From assembly GCA_028534125.1 (NCBI GenBank), contig CM052816.1, forward strand, positions 54,376,001-54,440,000: a stretch of 64,000 nt of DNA, read 5' to 3'. Each line of letters begins with the position of its first letter. Within the stretch, counting starts at the first letter, position 1. Shown piece after piece: positions 61,171-63,345 of this stretch. Origin of the DNA: Lama glama (taxonomy: Eukaryota). Under the pieces are notes generated by a model. It was not told where the DNA came from. It did no database searches and saw nothing but the letters and a program-made list of their open reading frames with translations. A program made the position numbers and the translations under genes.

Positions 61171-62308
61171 GAAGCCTGCCCTGCCTATAGCATAACCAGA
61201 GACAGAGTGCACTGAAAACTTCAATTAACTCACACAGAGGGAAACGAACATCTGAAAACAGCAGAAATCTTGCCAGAGAAGACAGTCAGGTGGCCACTCC
61301 TGGTTCTGGTAGCAGAACGGATGAAAATCACCTCCAGTGTGGAAATACTGAAAAAAGTCTGATACTTGGACACCAGGGAAATGAAAGGAAGGGCTGGAAA
61401 GTCAGTGGGACCAAAGATGGAGGTTTTGGGAGACATCACTTCTGGAGGGAGGGAGATGACTTGGAGGATCACATCCCTTGGATGCTTGATGGTGAGGGGA
61501 AAAAAAGGAAGAAGCAAGCAATAGAAATTAAGGGTCCTTTGAAAAGAAAAGAGATTCACAAAATCAAAAGACATATCCCGTGCTGTCCTTTCCCCAAAAG
61601 GCACCATTTATTAAACCGACAGTTCCCTGCACCGAGAGAAGATGCACACAAGCTAAGAAACCTAGTGGGCTGTCATCTCTGCCCGCACAGAATCACCAGC
61701 TATTGCTGGTCCAGCCATGAAAACATAAGACACTTCAAGATGAACAGAAAACTGCAGGCACATGTGAAATCAGCCAACGTTGAAGAATTTATTGTGATGA
61801 AAAGAAATTAATTCCAATTATGACTCTTTTCATTTCAGGTTATAACTAATGTTCCATTATTCACCTGTATTTTAGAAGTAGAAATTAGATACAAAAGAAA
61901 AACAAAACAAAACCCAAAAGCTCAAAAAGAAAGAAAAAAAAGGAAGATCAGCTCGTTTCTGAGAAAGGCAGAAGGAAACGAAGTGCGTCATTACACACCT
62001 GGCTCTGGGGGTTGCTGTAACAATACAGTGACTAGAGAAAAGAGGCGGTGAAAAAGCCCATTAGAGACGGGAATCTTAAAAGAGAGCGTCAACCTATCAT
62101 TCTTCTGAGCAATTATTTCAATTTTTTAAATGACTGAATTTTCTAAATTGGAAAGCATTTATTCAAGTAGTTCTGAGATCTTTTCTGTCTACTTTTGAGG
62201 CAGTTGTTCACTGTGATTCTCTTCTGGGCATAATTCATATTTATTTTTTAACTTAAGACTTTCACAATGTCCAAGGTATCTCTCTATTTCTCAAGACTTA
62301 ACACTTAC

Positions 62309-62332
62309 AGTTCTTTCAAGGAGTTCCATCAT
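62309..62332 (-). CDS. PDE8B: Candidate alternative first coding exon of PDE8B (MMELLERT)
   Basis: Minus strand ATG ATG GAA CTC CTT GAA AGA ACT|gtaagt: phase-0 consensus donor compatible with the phase-0 exon at 21748. An X-box lies just upstream. No transcript evidence available. Confidence 0.45.
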
Positions 62333-62342
62333 ATATAATCTG

Positions 62343-62355
62343 GTTGCTAAGCAAC
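62343..62355. promoter_or_regulatory. RFX X-box palindrome GTTGCTAAGCAAC
   Basis: Inverted half-sites GTTGC/GCAAC around a 3-bp centre, close to the RFX consensus GTTGCCATGGCAAC; 10 bp from the candidate ATG. Confidence 0.5.
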
Positions 62356-63345
62356 AGGGTTCTTTTGACGAACTGTCATCACAATAGAGAAGGACTGGAT
62401 CTGAAAGGTACAGAGTAAAATCTTTCAAGTAAAGATACAGTCGTATAGATTATTCTACTTATTGATTCCACAAAACTTCCTACTGCCTTATTTCTTTTTG
62501 GTAACCTTTTAGGCTTCATTAATGAAAAGAATAGGAAAGCATACTTCATACTGATGGTAATTAAAACTCATAAAACATGGAATACTCAAGCTTCATTAGA
62601 GTCCATCTACAATCATATTAAATCCATCCACTGAGCAGTTAGGCATATGTCAATTTAAGTTAAGAGAAAAATATTTTCTTTTCCTATTATGCATTGTGTG
62701 ACCAAGGATATCACTTAAGATTGCCCTTCCTGTAACGTTCAATATCAGTTTCACACCAGGACTGTGCAATTAAAATGCTAGCTGTCTCAAGCTTTTCCTC
62801 TAAAACTCTTGCTCCAGTCTTCCAGGCTATCTTCAGAGGATGATGTCAAATGCAAATGTTGAAACATAACAATGTTCACTGTAAGTTGTCTTCATGCCAC
62901 TGAAATTTAAAATGAATAAAATAAATATATACATGGGGCAATCTTCAGTTTCCTTTTCTCTCACTATTGGAAGATTTCTCTAAGAAGCAGAATGAAACTG
63001 TTAATATTTTGAGTGGCTTTTGCCAATAATTCTGAAGGCCGGTGCTTTGGAGATAGGAATTTGGATCTGAAGATGTGAACGAAGAAAACTGTTAAGAAAT
63101 ATGTATCAGTAACAACAAGAGGCACCTATCACAGTCAACTATTTTTCTCTCCAGCCTCACTTGTATTAATAATTAATTAGGCATCTCCACGTACCAAGTG
63201 GTACCTGACTACTGCATTGCATTATCCTTTAAAATGCATATCATTTATGGTAGGATTGCAACACACTTGGAACACTGTTTTCTTCATGATTACTTTGAGC
63301 CAAGACATTCATACATGAAAATACAAACTGCCCGCAGAAGAATGC

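What the first reader, a model, noticed from the sequence alone, without database searches (positions are those of the whole stretch)
62303..62450. Candidate RFX-driven alternative first exon encoding a short-N-terminus PDE8B (MMELLERT-QVSSAEV...)
Seen: in apparently non-repeat sequence, the minus strand reads ATG ATG GAA CTC CTT GAA AGA ACT|gtaagt. The donor has a consensus intronic hexamer and is phase 0, matching the exon at 21748. The frame is open back to a TAA at 62450-62452 with no earlier in-frame ATG. A palindromic X-box GTTGCTAAGCAAC sits at 62343-62355, and a short out-of-frame uORF (MTVRQKNPVA*, 62379-62347) ends inside it. Known: RFX factors bind X-boxes close to the TSS of ciliary and spermatid genes, and PDE families often use intronic promoters to swap N-termini. 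Canonical PDE8B starts MGC..., a putative acylation motif. Inference: an isoform lacking that N-terminus, possibly with different localisation, expressed in testis or ciliated cells.
Basis: partly seen in the sequence, partly recalled or inferred. Interest (0 to 1): 0.7.

Follow-up and report, generated by a model that had tools for sequence, protein, structure and literature searches.

The report
Unproven exon in PDE8B intron
A short stretch inside the first intron of a cAMP-degrading enzyme gene carries a binding motif for cilia/sperm transcription factors plus exon-like signals, but nothing yet shows it is used, and short-start versions of this enzyme are already known.

Summary
Entered from canonical exon 1, it would read the 'uORF' frame and stop inside the X-box (poison exon); a start at that acceptor would make it a hybrid first/internal exon. 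ATG-to-donor frames (19 vs 17.9 in shuffles) and acceptor/donor pairs (22) are common in this intron; only the X-box beside them is unusual (1 of 400 shuffles, post hoc). No support for the protein: 0 of 200 fetched PDE8B N-termini match, while other short first exons are annotated. Mouse ependymal RFX peaks assigned to Pde8b lie only upstream; human testis PDE8B staining is Leydig-only. No reads were laid and no orthologous DNA was obtained, so junction, start site and conservation are untested. Most likely an intronic RFX-type motif over an unused pseudo-exon (0.5); a real MELLERT-type isoform about 0.27. If real, it is one more PDE8B first exon. No earlier scan note matched.

The parts
62343..62355 (.). 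X-box (RFX-type inverted repeat, 5 of 6 match per half-site, 1-nt spacer)
   Evidence: exact match; ideal site definition from PMC2797782 passages; chance 41 of 400 shuffles of the intron part
62309..62332 (-). 8-codon frame MMELLERT, in phase 0 with PDE8B exon 2; the second ATG (62329) has A at -3 and G at +4, the first (62332) has T at -3
62303..62308 (-). 5' splice-site-like GTAAGT; 7 of 9 consensus positions, as for real exons 2 and 3
62347..62379 (-). out-of-frame 10-codon ORF; also the frame read if the 92-nt exon is entered from a phase-0 exon; stop 38 nt before the donor, 14 nt before ATG 62332
62401..62430 (-). acceptor-like site: 14 of 17 pyrimidines, CAG ending at 62401, branch-point-like A at 62430 (about -30) and 62416
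   Evidence: crude consensus scoring, no trained model
62309..62400 (-). candidate 92-nt internal or hybrid exon (phase 1 to phase 0 in the PDE8B frame; frameshifting after canonical exon 1)
   Evidence: use not shown
62366..62370 (.). half-CRE (CGTCA), 10 nt from the X-box; holds one of only 2 CpGs in 600 bp
   Evidence: 23 such sites in the window; motif definition recalled
62450..62452 (-). in-frame TAA bounding the 47-codon open frame
21689..21748 (-). PDE8B exon 2 (60 nt), tandem CAG-CAG acceptor, internal in-frame ATG at 21715
   Evidence: plus/minus-Gln isoforms seen in fetched proteins
9590..9780 (-). PDE8B exon 3 (191 nt)

Best explanation
An intronic RFX-type DNA motif (X-box with a neighbouring half-CRE) that happens to overlap one of the many pseudo-exons of PDE8B intron 1. 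If it does anything, an RFX dimer binds it and it acts as a weak enhancer or promoter-like element of the locus; the ATG frame and the splice-like sites are not used to make a stable spliced mRNA, and no MMELLERT protein is made in meaningful amounts. Shown: the motifs, their positions, the background rates. Inferred: RFX binding, enhancer action, non-use of the splice sites.
For: ATG-to-GTRAG frames are at chance level (19 vs 17.9); 22 acceptor/donor pairs score at least as well, 2 with GTAAGT vs 1.17 in shuffles; 6 frames have a strong Kozak ATG and 2 of them also an acceptor. 0 of 200 fetched PDE8B proteins with residues before exon 2 carry the peptide (best 2 of 8 identities), though other short first exons were recovered many times. 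The 47-codon frame has no relative. Mouse ependymal RFX1 and RFX3 peaks assigned to Pde8b are at -12 kb and -89 kb only, there is no RFX2 row, and Pde8b rises (logFC +0.91) in Rfx2-/- cells. Pde8b is absent from the RFX2 testis target/DE tables. Human testis PDE8B staining was seen only in Leydig cells. About two thirds of RFX2 testis peaks are outside promoters.
Against: The X-box lies 11 nt upstream of the in-frame ATG, a pairing seen in 1 of 400 shuffles, with a half-CRE 10 nt away (about 0.03 expected) and a strong Kozak context at ATG 62329. The protein sample is partial (120 of 1206 and 120 of 1069 hits listed, plus cluster members) and held only one protein named as camelid. The mouse tables cover other species and tissues, and the testis table lists only peaks at annotated promoters.
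Confidence: 0.5

Rival explanations
1. Alternative first exon, probably of the hybrid first/internal type: RFX (with CREB/CREM at the half-CRE) starts transcription at or near the acceptor (about 62400), the exon splices to exon 2, and ribosomes that pass the upstream ORF start at ATG 62329, replacing the 113 residues of canonical exon 1 by 7-8 residues. The enzyme keeps REC, PAS and catalytic domains but lacks the Gly2/Cys3 N-terminus, so it would be less membrane-bound.
For: X-box beside frame and donor in 1 of 400 shuffles; strong Kozak ATG; phase match. Hybrid exons have start sites centred on a strong 3' splice site and no CpG island (PMC11797052 passages), as here (GC 32%, 2 CpG in 600 bp). 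With a start at 62400 the X-box would be at +46 to +58, inside the -500/+500 window of PMC5838959 and at the edge of the -500/+50 promoter window of PMC4498915. PDE8B uses short first exons elsewhere (25 of 197 fetched proteins of 600 aa or more are of the MD/ME/MA..Q type).
Against: 0 of 200 fetched N-termini match; mouse RFX data and human testis staining give no support; an upstream ORF ending 14-17 nt before the ATGs would lower translation (effect inferred); initiator-like words at 62402 and 62396 are uninformative (12 per kb).
Confidence: 0.27
2. Poison cassette exon: the 92-nt exon is occasionally included after canonical exon 1 (phase 0), shifts the frame, stops after 17 codons inside the X-box, and the mRNA is removed by nonsense-mediated decay, tuning PDE8B output.
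For: Acceptor is as pyrimidine-rich as those of exons 2 and 3 (14 vs 12 of 17), with a branch-point-like A at about -30; 92 nt is a typical internal-exon size and not a multiple of 3; the phase-0 reading stops at 62347.
Against: Such pairs are common here (22); it does not explain the X-box or the in-frame ATGs; canonical exon 1 is outside the window, its phase is taken from fetched proteins.
Confidence: 0.12
3. Coding internal exon of 30 codons that follows an unknown phase-1 upstream exon and gives a longer alternative N-terminus.
For: The PDE8B frame is open through the whole 92 nt and 17 codons beyond.
Against: No protein relative of the 47-codon frame: 0 of 15 candidates at E<=10; 2 hits among 1.84 billion representatives, both tandem-repeat proteins; no Pfam match; best local score against fetched N-termini 25.
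Confidence: 0.03

Closest known systems
Annotated short-N-terminus PDE8B isoforms (MDQ-type first exon, e.g. mouse NP_001360935.1; MRLTQ-type starting at the exon-2 ATG, e.g. XP_054540260.1)
   Same: Same gene, same exon-2 acceptor with plus/minus Gln, same loss of the MGC N-terminus.
   Different: Different peptide (score 2-3 against the MDQ-type set vs 16 for the best chance frame); no MDQ-type exon was found in this window; those isoforms are annotated, this one was not seen in any fetched protein.
Hybrid first-internal exons (PMC11797052, passages; bioRxiv 10.1101/2021.05.27.446076, listing and start of abstract only)
   Same: Strong polypyrimidine acceptor, no CpG island, transcription-factor site near the exon start, position inside a gene body.
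   Different: The class is defined by reads showing both uses; none were examined here. The factor site lies inside the exon rather than in the upstream intron.
RFX2/RFX3 target promoters of spermatocytes, spermatids and ciliated cells (PMC4498915, PMC7498320, PMC2797782, PMC5838959; passages, and supplements for all but PMC2797782)
   Same: Near-ideal inverted repeat with a 0-3 nt spacer; could lie within tens of bases of a start site.
   Different: 13-bp form against the 14-bp motif found de novo in testis; no binding or start site shown; Pde8b is not among the listed mouse promoter targets.
[quoted passage not shown] 2008, PMID 18431404)
   Same: A tissue-enriched PDE8B isoform has been reported.
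   Different: Only the title was seen, in a reference list; the paper is not held, so whether it concerns the orthologous exon is open.

Membership tests
RFX X-box (functional site) | Inverted repeat of GTTGCC-like half-sites with 0-3 nt spacer | tested here: met
   5 of 6 per half, spacer 1; definition PMC2797782
RFX X-box (functional site) | Occupied by an RFX factor in vivo | tested here: inconclusive
   No camelid data; mouse ependymal peaks for Pde8b only upstream; orthologous position not mapped; testis non-promoter peaks not listed
RFX X-box (functional site) | Conserved across species | not testable with these tools
   No mammalian genomes held; motif scan of metagenome contigs gave one unrelated phage-like hit
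Alternative coding first exon of PDE8B | In-frame ATG and donor in the phase of exon 2 | tested here: met
   common by chance
Alternative coding first exon of PDE8B | Junction reads to exon 2 | not tested
Alternative coding first exon of PDE8B | Capped 5' ends at the site | not testable with these tools
   No CAGE data; runs found were contigs only
Alternative coding first exon of PDE8B | Protein with this N-terminus on record | tested here: inconclusive
   0 of 200, from a partial sample with one protein named as camelid
Hybrid first-internal exon | Strong 3' splice site at the exon's 5' end, no CpG island | tested here: met
   (crude scoring)
Hybrid first-internal exon | Reads showing both first and internal use | not tested
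   No reads were laid
Poison (NMD) cassette exon | Frameshift and premature stop with downstream junctions | tested here: met
   92 nt, stop at 62347 on phase-0 entry; exons 2 and 3 downstream
Poison (NMD) cassette exon | Inclusion rises on NMD inhibition | not testable with these tools
   needs an experiment

The most novel reading that the evidence does not exclude
One 92-nt hybrid exon works as a two-way isoform switch: spliced into transcripts from the canonical promoter it is a poison exon whose stop codon lies inside the X-box, removing the Gly2/Cys3-bearing long PDE8B; started from its own RFX/CRE-driven site at the acceptor it encodes a PDE8B without that N-terminus. RFX-high germ or ciliated cells would thereby trade a membrane-targeted for a soluble cAMP phosphodiesterase, with a half-CRE allowing cAMP feedback, possibly only in camelids.
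Probability: 0.06. Interest if true: 0.55.

Novelty: new member of a known kind. Interest (0 to 1): 0.2.

Why it matters
If the exon is used, it adds a tissue-restricted PDE8B isoform and a direct link from RFX factors to cAMP breakdown; PDE8B matters for steroidogenesis, thyroid and brain (PMC10146088, PMC13095499 passages). The principle is not new: PDE8B isoforms lacking the MGC N-terminus are annotated in rodents, lemurs and other primates, and one paper speaks of 'the several PDE8B promoters' (PMC8836216). The poison/first-exon switch would be the only part a specialist might find surprising. If unused, it is an ordinary pseudo-exon.

Tried and rejected
Sequencing runs (24 rows for 61800-63200): 14 rows hold 0.98-1.00 of the words (12 guessed DNA, 2 of unknown kind); 2 rows on record as RNA (reproductive-system label) hold 0.41 and 0.23; 4 guessed-RNA rows hold 0.39-0.43; 4 rows hold none. 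None was laid, so they are no evidence of expression; a share near 0.4 is also what full coverage at about 97% identity would give (0.97^31, my arithmetic). Own genome: not held. Degenerate X-box/ATG/donor scan of metagenome contigs: 1 hit, a phage-like coding region with no similarity to the window. 47-codon frame: no hit, two repeat artefacts. Profile approach: the 8-residue peptide aligned to an internal PAS-region stretch instead of the N-terminus, so the alignment was dropped. Search for an MDQ-type exon among 264 ATG..GT frames: nothing convincing (best score 16). 14-bp X-box form: 0 matches at up to 1 mismatch. Rfam on 62050-64000: 0. PDE8B in PMC5838959 supplements: 0 in 5 files. PDE8 acylation: PMC6713761 states that human PDE8A appears N-myristoylated; PMC4550359 does not mention PDE8; no direct evidence for PDE8B found, so that step stays an inference from Gly2/Cys3. 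Literature searches for this exon showed no description of it in the listings; the library lacks most subscription papers, including Horvath 2008. Earlier scan notes: nothing relevant.

Full report
Setting. The window holds PDE8B exons 2 (21748-21689) and 3 (9780-9590) on the minus strand; exon 3 matches Pfam PDE8A_N and retrieves proteins named PDE8B. The canonical first exon lies outside the window: in a fetched canonical protein 113 residues precede exon 2, and only one 1-kb bin (at 30001) has CpG observed/expected above 0.5. No whole genome is held.

Observation. All listed elements are present: the 8-codon frame 62332-62309, GTAAGT at 62308-62303, the bounding TAA at 62452-62450, the X-box at 62343-62355 and the out-of-frame ORF 62379-62347. 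The exon-2 acceptor is a tandem CAG-CAG, and fetched proteins show the matching plus/minus Gln pairs. The second ATG (62329) has A at -3 and G at +4, the first has T at -3, so a product would more likely start at the second.

A pyrimidine tract (14 of 17, against 12 of 17 for exons 2 and 3) and CAG end at 62401, with a branch-point-like A about 30 nt upstream. With the donor this outlines a 92-nt exon. Entered in phase 0, as from canonical exon 1, it reads the 'uORF' frame and stops after 17 codons inside the X-box, 38 nt before the donor. A half-CRE lies at 62370-62366, in a region of 32% GC with 2 CpGs in 600 bp. These promoter and splice motifs are recalled consensus patterns, not trained models.

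Chance. In the 42,240-nt intron part, ATG-to-GTRAG frames number 19 against 17.9 +/- 4.7 in 400 block-wise dinucleotide shuffles. Acceptor/donor pairs scoring at least as well number 22; 2 have GTAAGT against 1.17 in 300 shuffles; 6 frames have a strong Kozak ATG (shuffle mean 2.33) and 2 of these also an acceptor (mean 0.24). An X-box appears in 41 of 400 shuffles, and within 200 nt upstream of an ATG-donor frame in 1 of 400. The half-CRE has about 0.03 expected occurrences within 40 nt. So the exon-like signals alone are ordinary; their conjunction with the X-box is uncommon, but the features were picked after seeing the site.

Protein evidence. Two searches listed 120 of 1206 and 120 of 1069 hits; two cluster look-ups added members, 300 proteins in all. 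Of these 205 have an exon-2-like segment and 200 have at least 3 residues before it; none resembles the peptide (best 2 of 8 identities). The 95 without that segment were left out of this count; an earlier text search of the first 247 found the peptide's core in none. Other short N-termini were recovered repeatedly: among 197 proteins of 600 aa or more, 131 start MGC, 12 at the exon-2 methionine and 25 with an MD/ME/MA..Q first exon, the last from rodents and strepsirrhines. The sample is partial: I saw no large cluster of full-length mammalian PDE8B in it, and it held one protein named as camelid. The 47-codon frame has no relative (0 of 15 candidates; two tandem-repeat artefacts among 1.84 billion representatives).

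RFX evidence from papers. The ideal X-box is an inverted GTTGCC with a 0-3 nt spacer, and affinity follows closeness to it (PMC2797782, passages); this site matches 5 of 6 per half. Functional X-boxes cluster within 500 bp on either side of start sites (PMC5838959, passages; PDE8B absent from its 5 supplement files). In mouse testis about one third of some 3,000 RFX2 peaks are at promoters (PMC4498915, passages); Pde8b is absent from its 4 readable supplement files, which list annotated-promoter targets and changed genes only; two .doc files were unreadable. In mouse ependymal cells the GREAT tables give Pde8b an RFX1 peak at -12 kb and RFX3 peaks at -12 and -89 kb, none downstream of the start, and no RFX2 row; Pde8b is up in Rfx2-/- cells (PMC7498320, passages and supplement rows, file cut when stored). 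That an intronic peak would have been listed is my inference from the GREAT rule in the table head. In Drosophila a degenerate X-box upstream of an ATG was not predictive without conservation (PMC2375033, passages). In human testis PDE8B staining was seen only in Leydig cells, PDE8A in germ cells (PMC9585345, passages); mouse testis has both transcripts, mature sperm only PDE8A according to one cited study, although the same review's table lists PDE8B in mouse spermatozoa (PMC10146088, passages).

What stays open. No reads were laid on the locus and no orthologous DNA was obtained (the one metagenome motif hit is a phage-like chance match), so the junction, the start site and conservation are untested. 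Horvath et al. 2008 report a novel adrenal PDE8B isoform; I saw only its title in a reference list (PMC5003917, passages; not held). Searches for a description of this exon showed none in their listings.

Mechanism. Most likely (0.5) the X-box is an intronic RFX-type site, at most a weak enhancer or promoter-like element, lying over an unused pseudo-exon. Altered localisation is inferred: human PDE8A is said to be N-myristoylated (PMC6713761, passages); I found no such test for PDE8B. A poison cassette (0.12) and a 30-codon coding exon (0.03) follow. These odds are judgement, not computed.

Novelty and verdict. Reviews describe several PDE8B splice variants (PMC13095499, passages), one paper mentions several PDE8B promoters (PMC8836216, passages), and isoforms without the MGC N-terminus are annotated. 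If real, this is a new member of a known kind. The boldest reading not excluded is a single exon that poisons the long isoform and starts the short one (0.06). Earlier scan notes had no bearing. Interest 0.2.

Noticed in passing
window 40921-41268 (+): Intronless stretch matching the LSM domain (Pfam PF01423, E 2.4e-7), antisense within PDE8B intron 1; looks like a processed LSm3-type pseudogene (gene name from recall).
   Followed up: partly
window 63347-63487: Five copies of a 28-bp unit, 98% alike, about 1 kb upstream of the candidate on the minus strand.
   Followed up: no
window 12952-12963: Second X-box consensus match (12 bp, no spacer) in PDE8B intron 2.
   Followed up: no
window 21745-21751 (-): Tandem CAG-CAG acceptor of exon 2; fetched proteins from many mammals show isoforms with and without the Gln.
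   Followed up: partly
window 62841-62848 and 62931 (-): CRE-like octamer about 490 nt and a TATA-like word about 580 nt upstream of the X-box; too far from the acceptor to be its core promoter.
   Followed up: no
window 27872-28455, 35071-36721, 46468-47331, 58360-59032: Several copies of one interspersed repeat, 72-92% alike, LINE-like by their translations; one is split by a run of N.
   Followed up: no
window 51966-51995: Perfect 30-bp palindrome.
   Followed up: no
fetched proteins P0252, P0260, P0264, P0066: Further alternative PDE8B N-termini: short first exons in a bird-type and a marsupial-type protein, and a 27-residue insertion after exon 1 in a hamster cluster.
   Followed up: no
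L001:1-3056: Phage-like coding region (scaffold- and capsid-like frames) hit by chance by the motif scan.
   Followed up: no
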